Source: a virus
Taxonomy: Duplodnaviria; Heunggongvirae; Uroviricota; Caudoviricetes
DNA length: 5,791 bases
Strand: one strand, 5' to 3'
IMG/VR virus record: IMGVR_UViG_3300013903_000037
Part shown: in pieces, positions 1 through 5,791 of the stretch
Layout of the letters: every line of letters starts with the position of its first letter
Position numbering within the stretch: position 1 is the first letter of the stretch
The notes under the pieces: generated by a model
Databases searched by the model: none
What the model was told of the DNA's origin: nothing
What the model saw: only the letters and a program-made list of their open reading frames with translations
Translations under genes and position numbers: made by a program

Positions 1-13
1 AACTCTGTTATTC

Positions 14-134
14 TCTGTAGTCGTGTAATTACTCGAAGAGAGAGCGGCTAAAGCTCAATTACACTCTGCTTTCCTCGTGTAATTTCACTAAGCCTCAATA
101 CAATTCCACTTCCTACTTCTGTAGTCGTGTAATT
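14..134. repeat. Iteron-like repeat array: exact 17-bp direct repeat TCTGTAGTCGTGTAATT at 14-30 and 118-134; third copy of the 10-bp core TCGTGTAATT at 75-84; inverted copy of the 8-bp core (AATTACAC) at 57-64
   Basis: Read directly from the sequence. Direct copies are spaced about 50-54 bp apart in a stretch with no ORF on either strand. Function (origin iterons or operator array) is inference. Confidence 0.7.
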
Positions 135-180
135 GTTTTCGGTGGAAAAGCCAGAGGCGACACCGAAAGAGAATTCTGAT

Positions 181-250
181 CTTATTAATCTTATCTATCT
201 TAGTTAATCTTCTTACTTTATCTTACTTACTTTATCTACTTTATTGTTAA
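181..250. repeat. AT-rich, pyrimidine-rich low-complexity tract with 10-bp periodic tandem units (TCTTACTTTA at 211-220, TCTTACTTAC at 221-230, then TTTATCTACT)
   Basis: Read directly. Strong strand asymmetry (T/C on + strand) and no ORF. Possible DNA-unwinding or bending element next to the iteron array. Confidence 0.55.
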
Positions 251-280
251 TAATAGCTTTATAAGCTCTGTGTAGCTCTC

Positions 281-338
281 TGACGCAAGAAACCGCATTC
301 AGAAAGGGAATCACCTTAGAAAAGTGTTCTTTGCGTCA
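281..338. promoter_or_regulatory. Imperfect inverted repeat TGACGCAAGA (281-290) / TCTTTGCGTCA (328-338), arms about 37 bp apart
   Basis: Read directly. Lies upstream of the first gene. Could be paired half-sites for a DNA-binding protein or a long-range stem. Function unknown. Confidence 0.35.
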
Positions 339-463
339 TAATGTGTTTTATGAAGGATTCAGAGGTGTTTCATAACAGAAATGTATTGAGGCATATTTTT
401 CTAAGCATTACCCAAATATATACGATGACTTTGATATTCCCTTTTAAAAAGTAAGGAGGACTA

Positions 464-742
464 TTGATACAGTATTTAATAAAAAGCAAAGTAGACAGAA
501 TTCAGTGTAATGACACAGGAAAACGCATCTACGAGACACTTGCTTACCTCTATAAAGGAAAGCCAACACCGCTAAAATATAGCGATGTGTTACATCGAGC
601 AGGGTGCTCTGAAGCTGGTTTAAAATTCTGGCTGAAACAGCTATCAAACTTCGGTGTTATAGAGATTAAAGAATTATCTTTCTCTACATTCAATCTCAAA
701 AGACTTTCTAAAGAAATAGAATTCATCTATTCCACTCTCTAA
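464..742 (+). CDS. Small (92 aa) putative winged-helix/HTH DNA-binding protein, TTG start
   Basis: ORF track 464..742. Strong Shine-Dalgarno AAGGAGGA at 453-460, though spacing to the TTG at 464 is short (3-4 nt). No in-frame ATG or GTG exists near the 5' end, so TTG is the only canonical start. The central segment (KYSDVLHRAGCSEAGLKFWLKQLSNFGVIE) has the look of a helix-turn-helix with a wing. Sits next to the repeat array. Confidence 0.5.
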   Translation: MIQYLIKSKVDRIQCNDTGKRIYETLAYLYKGKPTPLKYSDVLHRAGCSEAGLKFWLKQLSNFGVIEIKELSFSTFNLKRLSKEIEFIYSTL

Positions 743-783
743 AATCTCTCTATGTAATTAAAATATAAAAGGAAAACATTATT

Positions 784-900
784 ATGATAGTAGCTATGTA
801 TTGGTTATTGTTCTTTCTCACGTTAGAAGCATATTTCGGGGTGTTTTCCTTTAAAAGAAAAGGAAAAATAAATGGCAAAAAGAAAAAACAACGTTGTTAA
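784..900 (+). CDS. Candidate 38-aa small membrane peptide (MIVAMYWLLFFLTLEAYFGVFSFKRKGKINGKKKKQRC): hydrophobic N-terminal segment plus polybasic tail
   Basis: Hand translation; not in the ORF track because it is short. ATG at 784 preceded by AAAGGA (769-774) at about 9 nt spacing. Overlaps the start of the 872..1282 gene in another frame, so it could also be a chance ORF. Confidence 0.25.
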   Translation: MIVAMYWLLFFLTLEAYFGVFSFKRKGKINGKKKKQRC

Positions 901-1282
901 GAAAATCGGTGATTCAGCTTCTCTTCTAAGTAAACCTAAATCTATTCTAAGACGTAAAGACTTTAAAGAGCTAGTTACGCTCACCAAGCAAAATAGCGCC
1001 CCTGGCGAATGGAAAACAGAGATCATAGAACATTCTCCCTCTGTGCCTTGTGGAGATGAATATATCGCATTACAAGAAATCTTATCTTCAACACCTGGCG
1101 TGTTCTGGAAACCTAAAAAAAGAAAAGAGTATATCGTTGATAGCTCTGATTTACGCAAATACCAGATTTTAGGATTTGAAGACTATAACCACTACGTCGG
1201 TTATCTCGCCACAAATGGCCTAAATAATTTAGTTCCTGAATTCCAAATTTTAGATAATGCTGATCACTATGGAGACTTTTAA
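872..1282 (+). CDS. Hypothetical protein, 136 aa, strongly basic N-terminus (MAKRKNNVVKK...RRKDFK), possibly nucleic-acid binding
   Basis: ORF track. ATG at 872 preceded by a purine-rich AAGGAA (860-865). Stop TAA at 1280-1282 lies one base before the next gene's ATG. Same strand as all other supported genes. Confidence 0.6.
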   Translation: MAKRKNNVVKKIGDSASLLSKPKSILRRKDFKELVTLTKQNSAPGEWKTEIIEHSPSVPCGDEYIALQEILSSTPGVFWKPKKRKEYIVDSSDLRKYQILGFEDYNHYVGYLATNGLNNLVPEFQILDNADHYGDF

Positions 1283-1283
1283 T

Positions 1284-1622
1284 ATGAACAAAAACACATA
1301 TGACACAATTTACTCACTAATTAATTATTATGAGGATGATTACCTCCTGCCTTTAAACCGCGCTGAACTTGAAGCATACAAAGAAAACACGCCAGCGGCA
1401 CTAAATGAGGCGTTTAAACACTGGGATTTAGCTGTGAATGCCTTTGAGCACCTCTCTAAGCGTGTAGAGATGCTCTGTAAGCGTGAAAACGCATACCTGA
1501 CAGCCGATCAGATATGGGAGCTATCAAACTGGATAGAAGATATTGAATCTGATGTTCGCTATGTAGGAGATGGACTTGTTGAACTAGCTCAACGCTTAGG
1601 CGCTACTATCACAGAAGAATAA
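1284..1622 (+). CDS. Hypothetical acidic protein, 112 aa (track ORF 1257..1622 trimmed to the ATG with the best ribosome-binding site)
   Basis: GGAGA at 1271-1275, 8 nt upstream of ATG 1284. The earlier in-frame ATGs at 1257 and 1269 lack a ribosome-binding site and overlap the previous gene. By residue counting the protein has a clear excess of Asp/Glu over Lys/Arg, and its composition suggests mostly helix. Stop TAA at 1620-1622. Confidence 0.6.
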   Translation: MNKNTYDTIYSLINYYEDDYLLPLNRAELEAYKENTPAALNEAFKHWDLAVNAFEHLSKRVEMLCKRENAYLTADQIWELSNWIEDIESDVRYVGDGLVELAQRLGATITEE

Positions 1623-1651
1623 AAAAAGCAACAAAAAAGTTGTAAAATATC

Positions 1652-1680
1652 TTGACATTTCATCTATTGTATGTTAATAT
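1652..1680 (+). promoter_or_regulatory. Near-consensus sigma70-type promoter: -35 TTGACA (1652-1657), 17-bp spacer, extended -10 TGtTAATAT (1672-1680), A/T-rich UP-like tract upstream (1621-1650)
   Basis: Read directly. Predicted transcription start around 1687-1689. Confidence 0.65.
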
Positions 1681-1686
1681 AATTAT

Positions 1687-1910
1687 ATGGGGGTGATTAT
1701 TTTTCCTTTATTGGTTCGATATTAAAAATTCTTCCTGTCATTAAAGGGGAGTAAAATCTCCGCTCCCCGCTTCTCCTCCTTAAGTAAATACTGTGTCATT
1801 ATTACCTCTTTTTTCCTTTGTTATGCATACATCTTGGAGTATGCATAACATAGGGTAATTACATAGGTATGAGTTAATAAAAGGCGGCTTTAAATGCTGC
1901 CTTTTATTTT
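1687..1910 (+). ncRNA. Putative structured non-coding transcript or leader of about 220 nt, running from the predicted start of the 1652-1680 promoter to the intrinsic terminator at 1879-1910
   Basis: No plausible ORF with a ribosome-binding site in this interval. Contains hairpin GGGGAG(1746-1751)/CTCCCC(1763-1768), a single-stranded CU-rich anti-Shine-Dalgarno-like stretch TCCTCCTTA (1774-1782), a perfect 10-bp inverted repeat TTATGCATAC(1821-1830)/GTATGCATAA(1839-1848), and the terminator hairpin. Existence of a discrete RNA is inference. Confidence 0.3.
1879..1910 (+). terminator. Intrinsic (rho-independent) terminator: stem AAAAGGCGGC / GCTGCCTTTT with 7-nt loop, followed by TTTTATTTT
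   Basis: Read directly: 6 G/C-rich pairs including one G-U, extended by A-U pairs, then a T-run. Moderate predicted strength, so it may act as a partial or regulated terminator. Confidence 0.55.
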
Positions 1911-1972
1911 GCCCGTTATGCAACTTAAAAGTTGTATTTCTTACTTTAAACAAGGTAACAAGGTTTATATAA

Positions 1973-2185
1973 ATGTTGTTCTTAAATGATAAAGAGCAAA
2001 TCATCAAGTATAAAGATGAAATGCTGAAAATTAATCCACAAATTACCGAAATGGTAGCTAAATACGCTGGGTGTTCTGTCGAGGAAGTAGAAAGATGTGT
2101 TGAAAAATATTTTTCTCCTTCTTCTCCGTCTACACCTTCCCTTAATGAATTAATCAAATTAAAAGCTAAGGAGATTACTAAATGA
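1973..2185 (+). CDS. Hypothetical protein, 70 aa
   Basis: ORF track. Weak ribosome-binding site (AAGG at about 1961-1964). Stop TGA (2183-2185) overlaps the ATG (2182-2184) of the next gene, which suggests translational coupling. Start codon uncertain; internal ATGs exist. Confidence 0.45.
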   Translation: MLFLNDKEQIIKYKDEMLKINPQITEMVAKYAGCSVEEVERCVEKYFSPSSPSTPSLNELIKLKAKEITK

Positions 2186-2550
2186 TTATTGATTTAGACA
2201 CTCTGTTTCCAGGTCGAAATCGAAAGACTTTCACAGATATTGTAAGTTATTGTACTGATCCGTTTGCCTCTGTAGAAAGCAAGGTTTTTGCTTCTCTTCC
2301 TGCTGATGTTGAGTGCGGCGACTTGATCACCAGCACTGGCGCTAAATATGAATCAGGAGATGATATCTATGTTGTTATGAGTGAATTTGTAACGGCTGGA
2401 GAAAACAAGCCTGTAGATGTGCTACGTAGCAATGCTGGGCTTGTATGCATCAAAGCTGATGCCCTGAATGCTGTAAGTGAAGCAGCAAAAACAGCATTAA
2501 TTAAAAAAGGCTTTCAGCTTGAAGGCTTTAATACGGTTTTCACTTCTTAA
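2182..2550 (+). CDS. Hypothetical protein, 122 aa, immediately upstream of the major capsid gene (positional candidate for a scaffolding, decoration or other head-associated protein)
   Basis: ORF track. Good ribosome-binding site TAAGGAG (2167-2173), 8 nt before ATG 2182. Function is assigned from position only. Confidence 0.6.
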   Translation: MIIDLDTLFPGRNRKTFTDIVSYCTDPFASVESKVFASLPADVECGDLITSTGAKYESGDDIYVVMSEFVTAGENKPVDVLRSNAGLVCIKADALNAVSEAAKTALIKKGFQLEGFNTVFTS

Positions 2551-2568
2551 TAAAAGGAATAATAATAA

Positions 2569-3597
2569 ATGATTCTAGGTAATGATTACGTTGATTTAGC
2601 TCCTTTGTTCTCTGCGCATAGCACTAGAAACTATCTACTGTCTACCCTTGACTTCACTGATCCGGTGGGCGTTAGTTCTCATAAAGTAGCTGTTTCCCAG
2701 CTTGTCGAAAGCAACGAATCTCTCTTTAACAAAGAGACAAGCCGTTTTAGTTCTGAACACAATGTTACTAAGCGTGAACAAGGTAAAGAATGGCTTATCG
2801 AAATCCCGTATTTTCTTCGTGAAGATGTGATCCGTCCTTCTGATGTTCAAGGCAAACGTAAGTCTGGCACTGATTTTCAGGAAACACTCACTGATATTTA
2901 TGCGGAATATATCGCTAAACACCACGTAGCGTATCAGCGCACTAAAGAGAGCGTGCTGGCGGCTTCTTTGTTCTCTGGCAAAACTTACACGCCTAAAACT
3001 GATGATGTGTTAATTGAGTGGAGCAAGCTGTTTAACGTATCACCAATGAAAACCACGGTGAACGCTTCCAGCACGGACACCACGAAGATTTTTAAAGAAT
3101 TTGATCAGATTGCTACTAACATTTTTGAAATCACACAAAGCCAGGCGTCAGCGGTAGAAAGAATTGTTGTTTTCTGTAAACCTGACGCCTTCTCTGCAAT
3201 TCGATTCTCTGCTGGTATGGCAAACGCATTCCAGTATGTAAGCCCACTGGAAGAGGGGAACGTTGTGTATCAGCGTCGTGACCTGCTGCCAGGAGTGACA
3301 GCGTTCACTATTCCAGGAACTAACATCGATGTTGTTAAACTGGTAGATCCGCTACATCTGGCACATATGACCGCAGACGCTGTAGCGGTTCCGAAGTTTG
3401 CTAAAGGCTCTAACGTATATCAGAACATCTACGGGGCTGCTTCCAGCACCTTTGAACTGATTAATGCCGCTCCTGCTGAGGTGTATAGCTATAGCTATGA
3501 ATCTTCTCGTGGTGATGCTGTTAACGTTGTTACAGAGAATAGCCAGATGGTTGTAAACCACGGCGTTGGCTTCTCCGTTCAAATCACTGTTAAATAA
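2569..3597 (+). CDS. Major capsid protein, 342 aa, HK97-fold, apparently of the T7 gp10-like family
   Basis: ORF track. Ribosome-binding site AAAGGA (2553-2558). Recognition is from memory of T7 gp10A (345 aa), not a search: window VVFCKPDAFSAIRF (residues about 200-213) against remembered T7 VFYCDPDSYSAIL (about 206-218); window IEIPYFLREDVIRPSDV against T7 ITIDGLLTADVLIYDIE; similar length and C-terminal character. Followed by a strong terminator, as is typical of highly expressed capsid genes. Confidence 0.7.
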   Translation: MILGNDYVDLAPLFSAHSTRNYLLSTLDFTDPVGVSSHKVAVSQLVESNESLFNKETSRFSSEHNVTKREQGKEWLIEIPYFLREDVIRPSDVQGKRKSGTDFQETLTDIYAEYIAKHHVAYQRTKESVLAASLFSGKTYTPKTDDVLIEWSKLFNVSPMKTTVNASSTDTTKIFKEFDQIATNIFEITQSQASAVERIVVFCKPDAFSAIRFSAGMANAFQYVSPLEEGNVVYQRRDLLPGVTAFTIPGTNIDVVKLVDPLHLAHMTADAVAVPKFAKGSNVYQNIYGAASSTFELINAAPAEVYSYSYESSRGDAVNVVTENSQMVVNHGVGFSVQITVK

Positions 3598-3616
3598 TAT
3601 TTTTAACGTGTAATAG

Positions 3617-3652
3617 AGGCGTGGCGTGTATTCACGCTTCGCCTTTTTTTTT
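3617..3652 (+). terminator. Strong intrinsic terminator: stem AGGCGTGGCGTG / CACGCTTCGCCT (two G/C-rich helices around a small internal loop), loop TATT, followed by a run of 9 T
   Basis: Read directly. Located 20 nt after the capsid stop codon. Confidence 0.75.
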
Positions 3653-3686
3653 ATTTATTTTTTAAATTTTGAGAGGTGATTAAAAT

Positions 3687-3887
3687 ATGGAAGTGATTTT
3701 GAAATCAAAAAATGGTGTACACGTACATTTAGATGCTAATGATTCTAGAGGCTTGTTAAATCTGAAATATCTCTGTTCTCTCCTAGATGTTCCATATGAA
3801 GGAGTAAAAGCCCGTATGTTCAGATTAAACGAGAGTATTGATCAAGCTCTACACCATTTCTTAAGCAAAGAAGGTGGTAAAAAATGA
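3687..3887 (+). CDS. Hypothetical protein, 66 aa
   Basis: ORF track. Ribosome-binding site GAGGTGA (3673-3679), 7 nt before ATG 3687. Stop TGA at 3885-3887, 19 nt before the next gene. Confidence 0.55.
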   Translation: MEVILKSKNGVHVHLDANDSRGLLNLKYLCSLLDVPYEGVKARMFRLNESIDQALHHFLSKEGGKK

Positions 3888-3906
3888 TTAATAAGGGGGA
3901 TTTTAA

Positions 3907-5791
3907 ATGTTAGAAATTAACACTTCTAAAATTAAGAACACAGTTACATTTAGTGTAGATAAAGACAGCTTGAAAAAAGCGAAAGACTCTATTACAGGCT
4001 TAAAGGAATTCGCAGAAAATATCAAGCCAGCTAAATTAAGATTTGATATTGTCACTAAAGGCTATAAGAAAGCACAAAGTGAAGTAGACAAGATTGCTCA
4101 ACAGAAAGCTAAAACAGAAAAGCAGAATCAAAGAGCACAAGCTGCCGCAGCAAGAGCACAGGCAAGGCAACAGGCACAAATAGCAGCACGCAAGGAGAAA
4201 GCAGACTTAAAACTGTTAGACGTTGGATCAAGCATTAGTGCAATGCACCGTCTCTCTGTAGCGGAACAATACAAAGCTATTGCACAGGCTAGAGAAATTG
4301 CCCTCCAATATGAAAGAGGCGCTATTAGTCTGGCACGTATGAATAGCCAGATGAAACGCCTACAACAGCAACAACGTAAGATTAATGGCAACAGAAAAGC
4401 TCAATTAGCCCCCGTTAAGGGAGGAGGATCAGGGAATGCCGCCACTATGGGCGCTCTGTTATTTGGAGGCGCTACGGCTGCTGCTGGCGTGATGGCTGTT
4501 AGTAAAGCGTCGGAGTTTGTTAGTAGCAGTTTCGCTAACGCAGACACCCAAGGGGAGCTAATCCAACGTGCAAAGCTGGGTGGTGTAGACGTTAACCAGA
4601 TGTATAATATTACAGAATGGGCGTATAAAAACGGCGTTGACTCTATGATGGGTGATCAAGGGGCTAGAAAATACCTAGATCAGATGAAAGATGTTAGGGA
4701 ACGTGCCGCAAAATCCTATAGTGAAGCTGAATTGGTGAAAGACAAGAAAACCGGAAAATCAGGGAAATGGAAAGGCGGTGATAACGCTATTAATGAACTT
4801 CTAAACATCGGAGTTATTAACAAAAGCGACCTTAAAAAATTTGCTGATAATCCAGCCGGATTAATTTCTAAGGCTGTTAATGGAATGATGAAAAAAGGGT
4901 TTTCAGATTCTCAAATTGGACAACGTTTAGAAGACCTGGGCGATGATTTGATGCTTACATCAAAATATTGGCAACGTTCCGTTAAAGATGTACAAGAAAG
5001 TATTAACCAGCAAAAAGCCTCTGGAAAATGGCTAACAGAAACACAGCAAGACTCTATTGTTAAATTCAGAGAACTAAACAGACAGCTTTCACAGCTTTCT
5101 GATGCAAGACAAGTAGCATTCGTAGACGGCTTTATGAAATCTCTTGATCCAAAAGTAACGGAAGAGTTTTTGAAAAACCTTTCTAATCTCACTCCGTATT
5201 TTACGAAGCTGGGAGAAGCTACAGGAAGTCTCTTTGAGGCCATTATGAAGATTGTAAACTGGTTTAATCGTAATGATGATAAGACAGATGCTATTCAGAA
5301 AAATTTAGGTGATGCACCGCCATTAAGCAATGACGGAATGAAACAGAATCTTTCTAATCTCGTTCCTGATAAATATAAAGGCGCTGGCACTGCAACAACT
5401 ACACCTGATAATAGTCATTCTCTCTTTAACACGATTAAGGGATTGCTTTTCGATGATAATTCTTCTGTGTCAGATGTAAAAATGTCAGTCAGCGAAGCAC
5501 CGATAACCAATCTCAAACAGGGTGCTTTAAATAATCTTGCAATGACAACTCCGGCTTATAATTTATCTCCTGTGTTTAATCTGAATCCTACATTTGAAGT
5601 GGTAACAGAGGTTCCTCTTACTATTAATTCTGACACATCAAGATTAAGCGATTATGTGGATTTTACAGCGAGAGCAAGTCGGGATAGCTTCTTGAAATCA
5701 TTAACATTAACCAGCTTATCAGGACACGAAGATTATCAGGAAATAAAAGGCGTAAGATATCATCAGACAGATAAAGAACTTGTGCAGAAAG
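3907..5791 (+). CDS. Large virion-type protein, 3'-partial (at least 628 codons, no stop before the window end): N-terminal Q/A/R/K-rich predicted coiled-coil, Gly/Ala-rich hydrophobic glycine-zipper-like segment (residues about 172-199, nt 4420-4503), then a mixed Ser/Asn/Thr-rich region. Candidate internal core, ejection or tape-measure-like protein.
   Basis: Hand translation of frame 1 from ATG 3907 gives an uninterrupted reading frame to the end of the window. Absent from the ORF track, presumably because it has no stop inside the window. Ribosome-binding site AAGGGGGA (3893-3900), 6 nt before the ATG. Composition is typical of phage tape-measure or internal virion proteins. Confidence 0.7.
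   Translation, partial: MLEINTSKIKNTVTFSVDKDSLKKAKDSITGLKEFAENIKPAKLRFDIVTKGYKKAQSEVDKIAQQKAKTEKQNQRAQAAAARAQARQQAQIAARKEKADLKLLDVGSSISAMHRLSVAEQYKAIAQAREIALQYERGAISLARMNSQMKRLQQQQRKINGNRKAQLAPVKGGGSGNAATMGALLFGGATAAAGVMAVSKASEFVSSSFANADTQGELIQRAKLGGVDVNQMYNITEWAYKNGVDSMMGDQGARKYLDQMKDVRERAAKSYSEAELVKDKKTGKSGKWKGGDNAINELLNIGVINKSDLKKFADNPAGLISKAVNGMMKKGFSDSQIGQRLEDLGDDLMLTSKYWQRSVKDVQESINQQKASGKWLTETQQDSIVKFRELNRQLSQLSDARQVAFVDGFMKSLDPKVTEEFLKNLSNLTPYFTKLGEATGSLFEAIMKIVNWFNRNDDKTDAIQKNLGDAPPLSNDGMKQNLSNLVPDKYKGAGTATTTPDNSHSLFNTIKGLLFDDNSSVSDVKMSVSEAPITNLKQGALNNLAMTTPAYNLSPVFNLNPTFEVVTEVPLTINSDTSRLSDYVDFTARASRDSFLKSLTLTSLSGHEDYQEIKGVRYHQTDKELVQK

What the first reader, a model, noticed from the sequence alone, without database searches (positions are those of the whole stretch)
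1973..3597. T7 gp10-like major capsid gene in a non-canonical neighbourhood
The 342-aa protein appears homologous to T7-type capsid proteins, on a remembered comparison only. In T7-like phages the capsid gene is preceded by the portal and a roughly 300-aa scaffolding gene and followed by tail tubular genes, and the operon is transcribed from phage-RNA-polymerase promoters. Here it is preceded only by 70-aa and 122-aa genes behind a sigma70 promoter and terminator cassette, and followed by a 66-aa gene and a large coiled-coil protein. No portal, protease, terminase or recognisable scaffold is adjacent. This suggests either a mosaic or novel virion module, with the 122-aa protein as a minimal scaffold or decoration protein, or a capsid gene recruited into a different kind of element.
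Basis: partly seen in the sequence, partly recalled or inferred. Interest (0 to 1): 0.6.

Follow-up and report, generated by a model that had tools for sequence, protein, structure and literature searches.

The report
Capsid-carrying satellite-like island in E. coli
The capsid gene is real but is not T7-like: it sits in a 12-14 kb mobile island, inserted at a tRNA gene, that carries its own copies of four virion genes of phi92-type virulent E. coli phages and is probably an undescribed kind of phage satellite.

Summary
The T7 label is wrong. The 342-aa protein belongs to Pfam Phage_cap_E (the lambda gpE family). Its best solved relative is the phage phi92 capsid protein gp124; T7 gp10A is not significant.

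The window is part of an 11.7-14.3 kb island. It is bounded by direct repeats at tRNA-Thr (thrW) or tRNA-Gly and carries an integrase and an iteron/Rep replication module. It occurs in about 5-11% of complete E. coli genomes and in Klebsiella, Citrobacter, Enterobacter and Serratia.

The conserved core is 70 aa, 122 aa, capsid, 66 aa and a 611-aa protein.
- The 611-aa protein is a homologue of the phi92 tape measure gp134.
- The next gene, outside the window, is 61% identical to the phi92 tube initiator gp135.
- The 122-aa protein is weakly but consistently linked to the head decoration protein gp123.

These genes are under purifying selection (dN/dS about 0.1).

Best reading: a satellite of phi92/phAPEC8-like virulent myoviruses that supplies its own head shell and tail-initiation proteins. 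No experiment or excised circular form supports this yet, and I found no description in the literature I could search. The last 65 bases of the window are foreign DNA, a chimeric join.

The parts
1..399 (.). Non-coding stretch of the island's replication region. It holds 17-nt repeats (TCTGTAGTCGTGTAATT at 14-30 and 118-134, a degenerate copy at 68-84). The 21-bp repeat at 379-399 marks a 1558-bp deletion.
   Evidence: Window 1-399 equals L001 5855-6252, and window 379-5726 equals L001 7810-13158. The intervening 62-aa gene, the Arc-like gene and most of the rep gene are missing in this copy. Five 22-bp iterons lie just upstream of the window (L012 8564-8673).
379..447 (+). 3' remnant of the Rep (HTH_36, replication-initiator-like) gene.
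   Evidence: It encodes ...FSKHYPNIYDDFDIPF*, identical to the end of the 238-aa Rep of intact copies. Rep matches Pfam HTH_36 and PHROG replication initiation families.
464..742 (+). 92-aa ORF conserved in the island; function unknown.
   Evidence: Intact in 24 of 24 E. coli copies examined. No significant family match.
872..1282 (+). 136-aa ORF, a core gene of the family; function unknown.
   Evidence: A gene of the same size is present in Klebsiella copies. No family match.
1257..1622 (+). 121-aa ORF (annotated as 112 aa from a later ATG), a core gene of the family; function unknown.
1652..1680 (+). Sigma70-type promoter (TTGACA, 17 nt, TAATAT, extended -10 TG).
   Evidence: phi92-type phages use similar TTGACA promoters in their structural region.
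1685..1972 (+). Structured leader: a perfect hairpin at 1820-1849 and a terminator-like hairpin plus T-run at 1879-1910, lying between the promoter and the 70-aa gene.
   Evidence: MFE -80.4 kcal/mol against -55.1 +/- 4.7 for shuffles, z = -5.35. Sequence read. Terminator-like hairpins occur at the same place in other lineages, but the sequence is not conserved.
1973..2185 (+). 70-aa gene, first gene of the conserved core; fast-evolving; function unknown.
   Evidence: Present at this position in all lineages at 26-28% identity. No family match.
2182..2550 (+). 122-aa gene, probable head decoration/stabilisation protein (counterpart of phi92 gp123).
   Evidence: It lies 18 nt upstream of the capsid gene, as gp123 (130 aa) does in phi92-type phages. 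A profile search of 1.8 billion proteins reaches small proteins that match PHROG 'head decoration' and Pfam HDPD. hhalign against the gp123 family gives probability 52%, E 1.4e-4. The best relevant PDB sequence hits and the top five fold hits are the decoration proteins of Bas63 and Sf14, but none is individually significant. Both families end in VFTS. dN/dS is 0.06-0.19.
2569..3597 (+). 342-aa major capsid protein, HK97 fold, Phage_cap_E family (relative of phi92 gp124 and lambda gpE).
   Evidence: Pfam PF03864 E 5.9e-14; phrog_29 major head protein. The family profile matches Phi92_gp124 at E 9.2e-18 over the full length. AlphaFold model pLDDT 69; top Foldseek hits are PhiTE, Bas63, Sf14 and ICP1 capsids. 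dN/dS is about 0.10.
3616..3650 (+). Intrinsic terminator after the capsid gene.
   Evidence: The phi92-type phage KMB37 also has a terminator directly after its capsid gene.
3687..3887 (+). 66-aa gene of the conserved core. It occupies the position of the 75-aa gene that precedes the tape measure gene in phi92-type phages. Function unknown.
   Evidence: No detectable similarity to the phage 75-aa protein.
3907..5726 (+). Tape-measure-like gene, homologue of phi92 gp134. It is 611 aa in genomic copies, and the true stop would lie at window-equivalent 5740-5742.
   Evidence: phrog_16051 tape measure E 1.3e-54; Phi92_gp134 E 6.1e-39. It is collinear with the 659-aa KMB37 tape measure; the N-terminal 66 aa are 55% identical and the 5' end is 81% identical at DNA level.
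5727..5791 (.). Foreign DNA, not part of the element: a fragment of a murE-like gene joined through a 6-7 nt overlap (AGGACA).
   Evidence: Window 5721-5791 is 100% identical to MT835527 within a MurE-like ORF. E. coli copies diverge from the window after 5726.

Best explanation
The window is the morphogenesis module of an 11.7-14.3 kb integrative element, most likely a phage satellite, found in E. coli and other Enterobacterales.

Shown:
- The element is bounded by direct repeats at the 3' end of thrW or of a tRNA-Gly gene.
- It has a tyrosine integrase at one end and a replication module (Rep plus iterons, or a helicase in other lineages).
- It has a conserved core of 70-aa gene, decoration-like 122-aa gene, Phage_cap_E capsid gene, 66-aa gene and tape-measure-like gene. 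E. coli thrW copies add a tube-initiator gene.
- The capsid, tape-measure and tube-initiator proteins are homologues of gp124, gp134 and gp135 of phi92-type virulent myoviruses (Stephanstirmvirinae), in the same local order.
- Everything else a virion needs is absent.
- The core genes are under purifying selection.

Inferred mechanism:
- When a phi92/phAPEC8-like phage infects, the element excises and replicates.
- It expresses its own capsid and decoration proteins from the sigma70 promoter and leader.
- These build shells sized for a 12-14 kb genome on the helper's portal, scaffold and protease, and the helper's terminase fills them.
- The element's own tape measure and tube initiator nucleate tails from helper baseplate, tube and sheath proteins, or divert helper tail assembly.

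The copy in this window has lost most of its rep gene and is probably no longer able to replicate on its own.
For: Identity of the proteins.

Synteny with phi92-type phage KMB37: decoration 130 aa then capsid 333 aa; 75 aa, tape measure 659 aa, tube initiator 236 aa.

Element boundaries:
- thrW: 20-bp att repeat 13.2 kb apart.
- tRNA-Gly: 22-24 bp att repeats 13.9-14.3 kb apart.

Integrase, Rep and iterons.

The same core is kept at 56% (Klebsiella) and 38% (Serratia) capsid identity, with different integrases and replication genes.

All capsid homologues found are from Enterobacterales or unnamed metagenome assemblies and are 342-348 aa where full length.

dN/dS in the near comparisons (L019, L018): capsid 0.10-0.11, 122-aa 0.06-0.19; tape measure 0.13 in the close comparison (L019), 0.28 against L018.

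Link to the phage subfamily:
- The tape measures of three divergent lineages each hit 134 phage records with the same organism make-up, predominantly Stephanstirmvirinae, out of 50,697.
- The tube initiator is 61% identical to the Justusliebigvirus protein, and the 5' end of the tape measure gene is 81% identical at DNA level. This implies recent exchange with such phages.

A defence gene (PD-T7-4) sits at the att-proximal end of one lineage, as in known satellites.

The element is present in APEC O1, the pathotype on which phAPEC8-type phages were isolated.
Against: - There is no experimental evidence of induction, packaging or transfer.
- A search for the excised circular (attP) junction found nothing in metagenome, viral or genome contig collections.
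- No small terminase, pac/cos site or helper-sensing regulator was identified.
- Apart from the tape-measure and tube-initiator genes, the element shares no DNA with the phage.
- Many E. coli copies have damaged mobility genes while the structural genes stay intact. Rep is deleted or truncated in about 7 of 24 copies and the integrase in 3 of 23. That pattern would also fit domestication.
- The capsid protein is only about 21% identical to the phage's, so compatibility with helper portal and scaffold is not assured.
- IMG/VR hits are mostly predicted proviral regions of isolate genomes, with three from metagenome assemblies; none shows the element in virus particles.
Confidence: 0.55

Rival explanations
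1. Defence or interference island. The element's capsid, tape-measure and tube-initiator homologues act as dominant-negative decoys. They co-assemble with, and poison, the heads and tails of infecting phi92-type phages. The host retains them for protection, and mobility is secondary or lost.
For: The structural genes are intact in 22-24 of 24 copies, while the rep and integrase genes are often disrupted. The genes carried are those that nucleate assembly: shell, tape measure and tube initiator. One lineage carries a bona fide defence gene. No circular form was found.
Against: The loci were picked through their capsid gene, which biases that comparison. The family keeps a narrow size of 11.7-14.3 kb, att repeats, and interchangeable integrase and replication modules across genera, which indicates continuing horizontal mobility. 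Interference and satellite transfer are not mutually exclusive; PLE and P4 do both (established knowledge).
Confidence: 0.22
2. Inert remnant of a decayed prophage that happened to keep a few structural genes.
For: Prophage predictors flag it, which is why it appears in IMG/VR proviral calls. Some copies carry IS insertions, deletions and frameshifts.
Against: The core genes have dN/dS of about 0.1 and are intact from E. coli to Serratia. There are no pseudogene traces of portal, terminase, sheath or tube genes. The same compact architecture recurs with different integrases and replication modules. The only phage relatives are 145-150 kb virulent phages; KMB37's annotation lists no tyrosine integrase, only a serine recombinase.
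Confidence: 0.05
3. One reading: a T7-type capsid gene in a mosaic or novel virion module of a complete phage whose other genes lie elsewhere.
For: The protein has an HK97 fold and is nearly the same length as T7 gp10A.
Against: T7 gp10A is not a significant sequence match and is a poor fold match (TM 0.41, rank 36). The whole element is 12-14 kb between att repeats and has no portal or terminase gene. In CEA601S the neighbouring P22-like prophage is a separate tandem insertion with its own att copy.
Confidence: 0.02
4. A self-sufficient particle or compartment: the capsid and decoration proteins assemble without any phage, like an encapsulin or a minimal gene transfer agent.
For: HK97-fold proteins can self-assemble, and encapsulins appear among the distant fold hits.
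Against: There is no cargo-loading or packaging gene. A tape measure and a tube initiator have no role without a tail. The affinity is specifically to phi92-type virion proteins.
Confidence: 0.04

Closest known systems
Phage phi92 / Stephanstirmvirinae virion genes gp123 (decoration), gp124 (major capsid), gp134 (tape measure), gp135 (tube initiator)
   Same: The order is the same: decoration gene then capsid gene, and small gene, tape measure, tube initiator. Homology is significant for the capsid (profile E 9.2e-18), the tape measure (E 6.1e-39) and the tube initiator (E 2.1e-78, 61% identity). Both have a terminator after the capsid gene and sigma70-type promoters.
   Different: The phage is a 148-kb virulent myovirus with a full virion gene set. 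The island is 12-14 kb, integrative, and lacks the portal, protease, scaffold, terminase, sheath, tube and baseplate genes. Capsid identity is only about 21%, and the tape measure is about 30-50 aa shorter.
Capsid-forming PICIs (cf-PICIs)
   Same: Small integrative satellites that encode their own HK97-fold capsid protein rather than remodelling the helper's (bioRxiv 10.1101/2022.09.08.507074).
   Different: By that paper's abstract, cf-PICIs encode all the proteins needed to make their small capsids and take only tails from the helper. The specific genes (portal, protease/scaffold, head-tail connectors, small terminase) are from my memory. This island has none of them, and it carries tail-initiation genes that cf-PICIs lack.
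PLE satellites of the virulent Vibrio myovirus ICP1
   Same: A chromosomal island tied to a large virulent myovirus. The ICP1 capsid protein is among the closest structural relatives of this island's capsid protein (8g1r, TM 0.65).
   Different: PLE has no capsid gene. It remodels the ICP1 coat protein with an external scaffold (title of PDB entry 8g1r; PMC10945586 as cited in PMC12846349). PLEs are reported only in Vibrionaceae (PMC11773190 introduction).
P4 satellite of P2
   Same: An integrative satellite of 11.6 kb, comparable in size, that ends up in a small capsid and has a capsid-surface protein (Psu) (established knowledge).
   Different: P4 uses the P2 capsid protein with the Sid external scaffold. 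It encodes no capsid or tape-measure gene.
Lambda gpD-gpE pair
   Same: The Pfam family of the capsid protein is the same (Phage_cap_E), and a decoration gene of about 110-130 aa lies immediately upstream.
   Different: The fold match to lambda is more distant (TM about 0.50) than to the large myoviruses. The 122-aa protein itself does not reach the Pfam HDPD model.
T7 gp10A
   Same: HK97 fold and similar length.
   Different: No significant sequence similarity. TM 0.41. No T7-type gene order.

Membership tests
T7 gp10-type major capsid protein | Significant sequence similarity to T7 gp10A | tested here: not met
   phmmer against PDB: 2xvr (gp10A) E 0.38, 13.6 bits, 70 residues. Absent from the family-profile search at E <= 1.
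T7 gp10-type major capsid protein | T7 capsid is the closest fold among HK97 capsid proteins | tested here: not met
   Foldseek rank 36, TM 0.41, against 0.64-0.67 for PhiTE, Bas63, Sf14 and ICP1. Model pLDDT 69.
T7 gp10-type major capsid protein | Gene order portal, scaffold, capsid, tail tubular genes | tested here: not met
   None of these genes lies within the att-bounded element.
Phage_cap_E (PF03864) HK97-fold major capsid proteins (lambda gpE, phi92 gp124) | Pfam model matched above the gathering score over the full length | tested here: met
   52.3 bits against a cut-off of 22.9; residues 19-341 on profile positions 14-329 of 329.
Phage_cap_E (PF03864) HK97-fold major capsid proteins (lambda gpE, phi92 gp124) | Predicted HK97 fold with capsid proteins as best structural matches | tested here: met
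   256 PDB matches with E <= 0.001, and the 50 matches listed are almost all capsid or encapsulin shell proteins.
Phage_cap_E (PF03864) HK97-fold major capsid proteins (lambda gpE, phi92 gp124) | Assembles into an icosahedral shell | not testable with these tools
   Needs expression and electron microscopy.
gpD / phi92 gp123-type head decoration proteins | Detectable homology to known decoration proteins | tested here: inconclusive
   No direct Pfam, PHROG or PDB hit. Transitive link through remote homologues to phrog_2680 and HDPD. hhalign probability 52%, E 1.4e-4. Bas63 and Sf14 decoration proteins are among the best, non-significant PDB sequence hits and top the fold search. AlphaFold model is poor (pLDDT 53.5).
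gpD / phi92 gp123-type head decoration proteins | Gene of about 110-130 codons immediately upstream of the capsid gene | tested here: met
   122 aa, 18-nt gap. The phage gp123 counterpart is 130 aa with a 21-nt gap.
Tape measure protein (phi92 gp134 type) | Full-length collinear homology to a tape measure seen in a solved tail structure | tested here: met
   Phi92_gp134 E 6.1e-39; phrog_16051 E 1.3e-54; alignment.
Phage satellites (generic) | Small (about 7-20 kb) integrated element with integrase and flanking att repeats | tested here: met
   11.7-14.3 kb; att repeats of 20-24 bp at thrW or tRNA-Gly; tyrosine integrase.
Phage satellites (generic) | Own replication module | tested here: met
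   Rep (HTH_36 / replication-initiator PHROGs) plus 22-bp iterons, or a DEAD-box helicase in another lineage. The rep gene is deleted in the window's own copy.
Phage satellites (generic) | Incomplete virion gene set, hence dependence on a helper | tested here: met
   No portal, terminase, protease, scaffold, sheath, tube or baseplate gene. Dependence itself is inferred.
Phage satellites (generic) | Helper-induced excision, packaging and transfer | not testable with these tools
   The only proxy, a search for the attP junction, was negative.
cf-PICI | Encodes portal, protease/scaffold, head-tail connectors and small terminase besides the capsid protein | tested here: not met
   Only the capsid protein is present. 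The other ORFs have no such Pfam, PHROG or NCBIfam matches.
Classical PICI / P4-like satellite | AlpA-type regulator plus primase/helicase (PICI); Sid, Psu, Delta and alpha primase (P4) | tested here: not met
   None was detected by Pfam or PHROGs in the island ORFs. EcCIMP1, a true PICI at the same thrW site, is a different element.

The most novel reading that the evidence does not exclude
This is the first recognised satellite family of phi92/phAPEC8-like virulent myoviruses in Enterobacterales. It represents a new satellite strategy: the element supplies its own capsid shell and decoration protein and its own tail-length and tube-initiation proteins, while taking portal, scaffold, protease, terminase, baseplate, tube and sheath from the helper. 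The resulting virions would be hybrids in both head and tail.
Probability: 0.4. Interest if true: 0.8.

Novelty: new variant of a known kind. Interest (0 to 1): 0.66.

Why it matters
If the satellite reading holds, three things follow.
- E. coli and its relatives would have a common satellite of large virulent myoviruses. The element is in 288 to 624 of 5,426 complete E. coli genomes. The ISME J 2025 paper on EcCIMP1 (PMC11773190) states that PLEs and PICMIs, the satellite families tied to virulent phages, are found only in Vibrionaceae.
- phi92-, phAPEC8- and Justusliebigvirus-type phages are candidates for phage therapy against ExPEC and APEC. A resident element that hijacks or poisons their assembly would affect efficacy and could move DNA between pathogens.
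- It would be an intermediate between satellites that only remodel helper capsids and cf-PICIs that encode a whole head. It would also be the first satellite with its own tape measure.

It also re-reads a stretch of DNA long catalogued as part of the vat/thrW 'pathogenicity island' of APEC and ExPEC strains.

Tried and rejected
- **Near-identity DNA search against phage records.** It found only a 71-base match at the window end. This turned out to be a murE-like fragment, so the window end is chimeric and not a phage relative.
- **Direct pairwise comparisons.** The 122-aa protein against phage gp123, and the 66-aa protein against the phage 75-aa protein, gave nothing.
- **Single-sequence and first-profile PDB searches for the 122-aa protein.** Nothing found.
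- **Structure prediction of the 122-aa protein.** Low confidence (pLDDT 53.5), so its fold hits are only suggestive.
- **tblastn of all 16 island proteins against about 139 kb of phage KMB37.** Only the capsid, tape-measure and tube-initiator proteins match. The 136-aa protein gave a marginal hit (E 0.009), which I did not accept.
- **Shared k-mers between phage and island intergenic regions.** No specific shared motif beyond generic promoter and RBS words.
- **Alignment of the leader region across lineages.** Essentially unalignable, so no conserved RNA element can be claimed. Rfam found only the tRNA.
- **attP (circular junction) search.** Negative in three collections.
- **IMG/VR and metagenome contigs carrying the capsid gene.** IMG/VR hits are mostly proviral predictions from isolate genomes, and the metagenome scaffold has chromosomal flanks; none is a virion-derived genome.
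- **Literature searches.** Eight searches found no description of this element. EcCIMP1 at the same site is a different island. The Parreira & Gyles 2003 VAT-PAI paper could not be read.
- **NCBIfam and PADLOC.** No names for the core genes.
Full report
**1. Observation check**

A sigma70-type promoter with an extended -10 lies at 1652-1680. The 288 nt between it and the 70-aa gene fold far better than shuffled sequence (z = -5.35). This leader contains a perfect hairpin (1820-1849) and a terminator-like hairpin with a T-run (1879-1910; read). A strong intrinsic terminator follows the capsid gene (3616-3650).

No portal, protease, terminase or scaffold gene is in the window or within 10 kb either side in genomic copies.

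**2. The capsid protein**

The 342-aa protein matches Pfam Phage_cap_E (lambda gpE family) over its full length, at E 5.9e-14 and 52.3 bits against a gathering score of 22.9. It also matches PHROG 29, 'major head protein'.

- Against all PDB sequences, a profile of the protein family (alignment A1) finds Phi92_gp124 best, at E 9.2e-18 and aligned end to end. PhiTE, Sf14 and Bas63 capsid proteins also match.
- T7 gp10A reaches only E 0.38 over 70 residues with the single sequence and is absent from the profile search.
- An AlphaFold model (pLDDT 69) matches the PhiTE, Bas63, Sf14 and ICP1 capsid proteins best (TM 0.62-0.67). Lambda gpE scores about 0.50. T7 ranks 36th with 0.41.

So this is a genuine HK97-fold major capsid protein of the gpE/phi92 gp124 lineage. 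'T7 gp10-like' holds only at the level of the shared fold.

**3. The neighbours**

- **The 611-aa ORF.** It is not just a coiled-coil protein. It matches PHROG 16051 'tape measure' (E 1.3e-54) and Phi92_gp134 (E 6.1e-39). It is collinear with the 659-aa tape measure of the phi92-type phage KMB37, and the first 66 residues are 55% identical.
- **The next gene, outside the window (237 aa).** It has a Pfam Dit_like domain (E 3.5e-29). It is 61% identical to the Justusliebigvirus tube initiator and matches Phi92_gp135 at E 2.1e-78.
- **Gene order in phage KMB37.** The order there is portal, protease, scaffold, decoration (130 aa), capsid (333 aa)... sheath, tube, chaperone, 75 aa, tape measure, tube initiator. 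The island keeps two short pieces of that order, [122 aa, capsid] and [66 aa, tape measure, tube initiator], and nothing else.
- **The 122-aa protein.** It has no direct family hit, but several weak lines agree:
  - A family profile searched against 1.8 billion proteins reaches 111-122-aa proteins (E 5.7e-7 to 4e-4). Four of the six matched known families: two PHROG 2680 'head decoration' and two Pfam HDPD (lambda gpD), the HDPD matches below the curated threshold.
  - The widened profile aligns with the phi92 gp123 family at hhalign probability 52%, E 1.4e-4.
  - The decoration proteins of Bas63 and Sf14 are among its best PDB sequence hits, ranked second and third (E 0.1-0.4).
  - They are also the top five fold hits of a poor model.
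  - Both families end in the same C-terminal VFTS.

  I regard 'decoration protein' as probable, not proven.
- **The 70-aa and 66-aa genes.** They are positionally conserved but fast-evolving (26-40% identity across lineages) and have no detectable relatives.

**4. Genomic context**

The exact capsid protein is encoded in hundreds of E. coli chromosomes. The window DNA matches 624 of 5,426 complete E. coli genomes, 288 of them over at least 80% of its length, and always on the chromosome.

The element lies directly after thrW (tRNA-Thr CGT), downstream of proBA. It is bounded by a 20-bp direct repeat 13.2 kb apart. A tyrosine integrase sits at the far end, reading towards attR, the far att repeat.

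Upstream of the window are accessory ORFs, five 22-bp iterons, small regulators and a Rep protein (HTH_36, replication-initiator PHROGs).

The window's own copy is identical to strain CEA601S. It has lost 1558 bp between two 21-bp repeats, which removed most of the rep gene. In CEA601S a P22-like prophage sits in tandem at the same att site and is a separate insertion.

The '20-kb PAI-APECO1-thrW' of the pathogenicity-island literature (PMC7545054) consists of this element plus the 7-kb vat island.

**5. A family, not an accident**

Capsid homologues (38-96% identity, about 343 aa) occur only in Enterobacterales.

- The Klebsiella (56%) and Serratia (38%) copies, and a second E. coli lineage at tRNA-Gly (75%), keep the core 70 / 122 / capsid / 66 / tape measure next to an integrase. 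Their replication genes differ, and the tube initiator is absent.
- att repeats give element sizes of 13.9-14.3 kb for these.
- dN/dS is 0.10-0.11 for the capsid, 0.06-0.19 for the 122-aa protein, and 0.13 for the tape measure in the close comparison.
- One lineage carries the defence gene PD-T7-4 at its att-proximal end.
- In 24 E. coli copies the structural genes are almost always intact, whereas the rep gene (about 7 of 24) and the integrase (3 of 23) are sometimes disrupted. The loci were chosen through their capsid gene, which biases this comparison.

**6. Link to one phage subfamily**

- The tape measures of three divergent lineages each hit 134 phage records, with the same organism make-up each time. 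These are predominantly Stephanstirmvirinae (Phapecoctavirus, Justusliebigvirus and relatives), at 31-42% identity.
- At DNA level the island shares with KMB37 only the tube-initiator gene (72%) and the first 100 nt or so of the tape measure gene including its ribosome-binding region (81%). That pattern fits recent recombination.
- These phages are 145-150 kb virulent myoviruses. The island therefore cannot easily be a decayed prophage of that kind.
- Their structural genes are preceded by sigma70-type TTGACA promoters, and their capsid gene is followed by a terminator, as in the island.

**7. Most likely mechanism**

*Shown:* a mobile, integrative, replicative element under selection carries homologues of four phi92-type virion proteins and lacks the rest.

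*Inferred:* it is a satellite of phi92/phAPEC8-like phages. On infection it excises, replicates, and makes its own shell and decoration protein. These assemble on the helper's portal, scaffold and protease into heads sized for 12-14 kb; from general knowledge of P4, SaPI and PLE I would guess T=3 or T=4. Its tape measure, about 30-50 aa shorter than the phage's, and its tube initiator either start tails for its own particles or divert helper tail assembly.

The promoter-leader-terminator arrangement resembles the lambda PR'-tR' late control. It suggests antitermination or another gated read-through, but this is speculation, because the leader is not conserved in sequence across lineages.

The main rival is a defence role through decoy structural proteins. 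That role can coexist with satellite transfer.

**8. Comparison with known systems**

- The element works most like a cf-PICI in having its own capsid protein. It fails the cf-PICI definition because it has no portal, protease, connectors or small terminase.
- It resembles PLE in targeting a large virulent myovirus, but PLE has no capsid gene.
- It is not a classical PICI or a P4-like element (no AlpA, primase, Sid or Psu).
- EcCIMP1, a PICI at the same thrW site, is a different element.

**9. Novelty**

Eight full-text searches found no description of this element family or of any satellite of Stephanstirmvirinae. Absence from the searchable library is not proof of absence. I rate it a new variant of a known kind (phage satellites), pending experiment.

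**10. Artefact in the window**

Bases 5727-5791 are not from this element. They are 100% identical to a murE-like gene on a faecal 'Bacteriophage sp.' scaffold and join the E. coli sequence through a 6-7 nt overlap. The real tape-measure ORF ends 16 nt after the junction, with ...SGQSNGG*.

Noticed in passing
window 5727-5791: The last 65 bases are foreign. They are 100% identical to a murE-like gene on MT835527 (an 'UNVERIFIED Bacteriophage sp.' faecal scaffold that looks like Firmicute chromosomal DNA). They join the E. coli element at a 6-7 nt overlap (AGGACA). The window's source contig is therefore chimeric, and the tape-measure ORF is falsely extended.
   Followed up: yes
window 379-399 (deletion junction); L001 6232-7830: The window's copy of the island has a 1558-bp deletion between two 21-bp direct repeats. 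It removes a 62-aa gene, an Arc-like gene and most of the Rep gene. L002, L008 and strain CEA601S share the deletion.
   Followed up: yes
L012 8564-8673 (just upstream of the window); window 14-30, 68-84, 118-134: Five tandem 22-bp iterons (GGTAGGTCAYWGTGARCTAGGG) and three 17-nt repeats (TCTGTAGTCGTGTAATT) lie upstream of the rep gene. They are probably the island's replication origin.
   Followed up: partly
window 1652-1972: A strong sigma70 promoter is followed by a roughly 290-nt highly structured leader (z = -5.35) with a perfect 11-bp hairpin (1820-1849) and a terminator (1879-1910) ahead of the morphogenesis genes. The layout recalls lambda PR'-tR' late-gene control. Other lineages also have terminator-like hairpins here, but the sequence is not conserved.
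   Followed up: partly
L018 1042-1659 (E. coli EC21GDE043, tRNA-Gly lineage of the element): The att-proximal accessory region carries a PD-T7-4 anti-phage defence gene (PADLOC E 6.3e-90). The Klebsiella copies carry a Dam-like orphan methyltransferase at the corresponding place.
   Followed up: partly
L045 (APEC O1, NC_008563 295044-315000): The published 20-kb 'PAI-APECO1-thrW' / vat island is a composite. It consists of this roughly 12-kb capsid-carrying element plus a separate 7-kb island with its own degraded integrase, a MarR regulator and vat.
   Followed up: yes
L012 1-5320 (E. coli CEA601S): A P22-like prophage end (tailspike, Arc repressor, ejection-protein-like transglycosylase) sits in tandem between thrW and the island, separated from it by a third copy of the att repeat. 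thrW is a shared hotspot for P22-like phages, the PICI EcCIMP1 and this element.
   Followed up: partly
L017 9827-22095 (phage KMB37 structural region): The phi92-type phage has host-type TTGACA/-10 promoters and intrinsic terminators between its structural genes, including a terminator right after its capsid gene.
   Followed up: partly
PDB entry 9zbi chain A: An unidentified 344-aa 'Capsid protein' is the best single-sequence PDB match to the island capsid protein (E 9.6e-11, residues 27-216). Its source organism could not be determined with these tools. It is too distant to be a member of this family.
   Followed up: no
L029 and L034 (IMG/VR proviral loci), tape-measure gene: In 2 of 24 E. 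coli copies the best tblastn segment covers only 53% of the tape measure. This could be a frameshift or truncation, or merely a split alignment.
   Followed up: no
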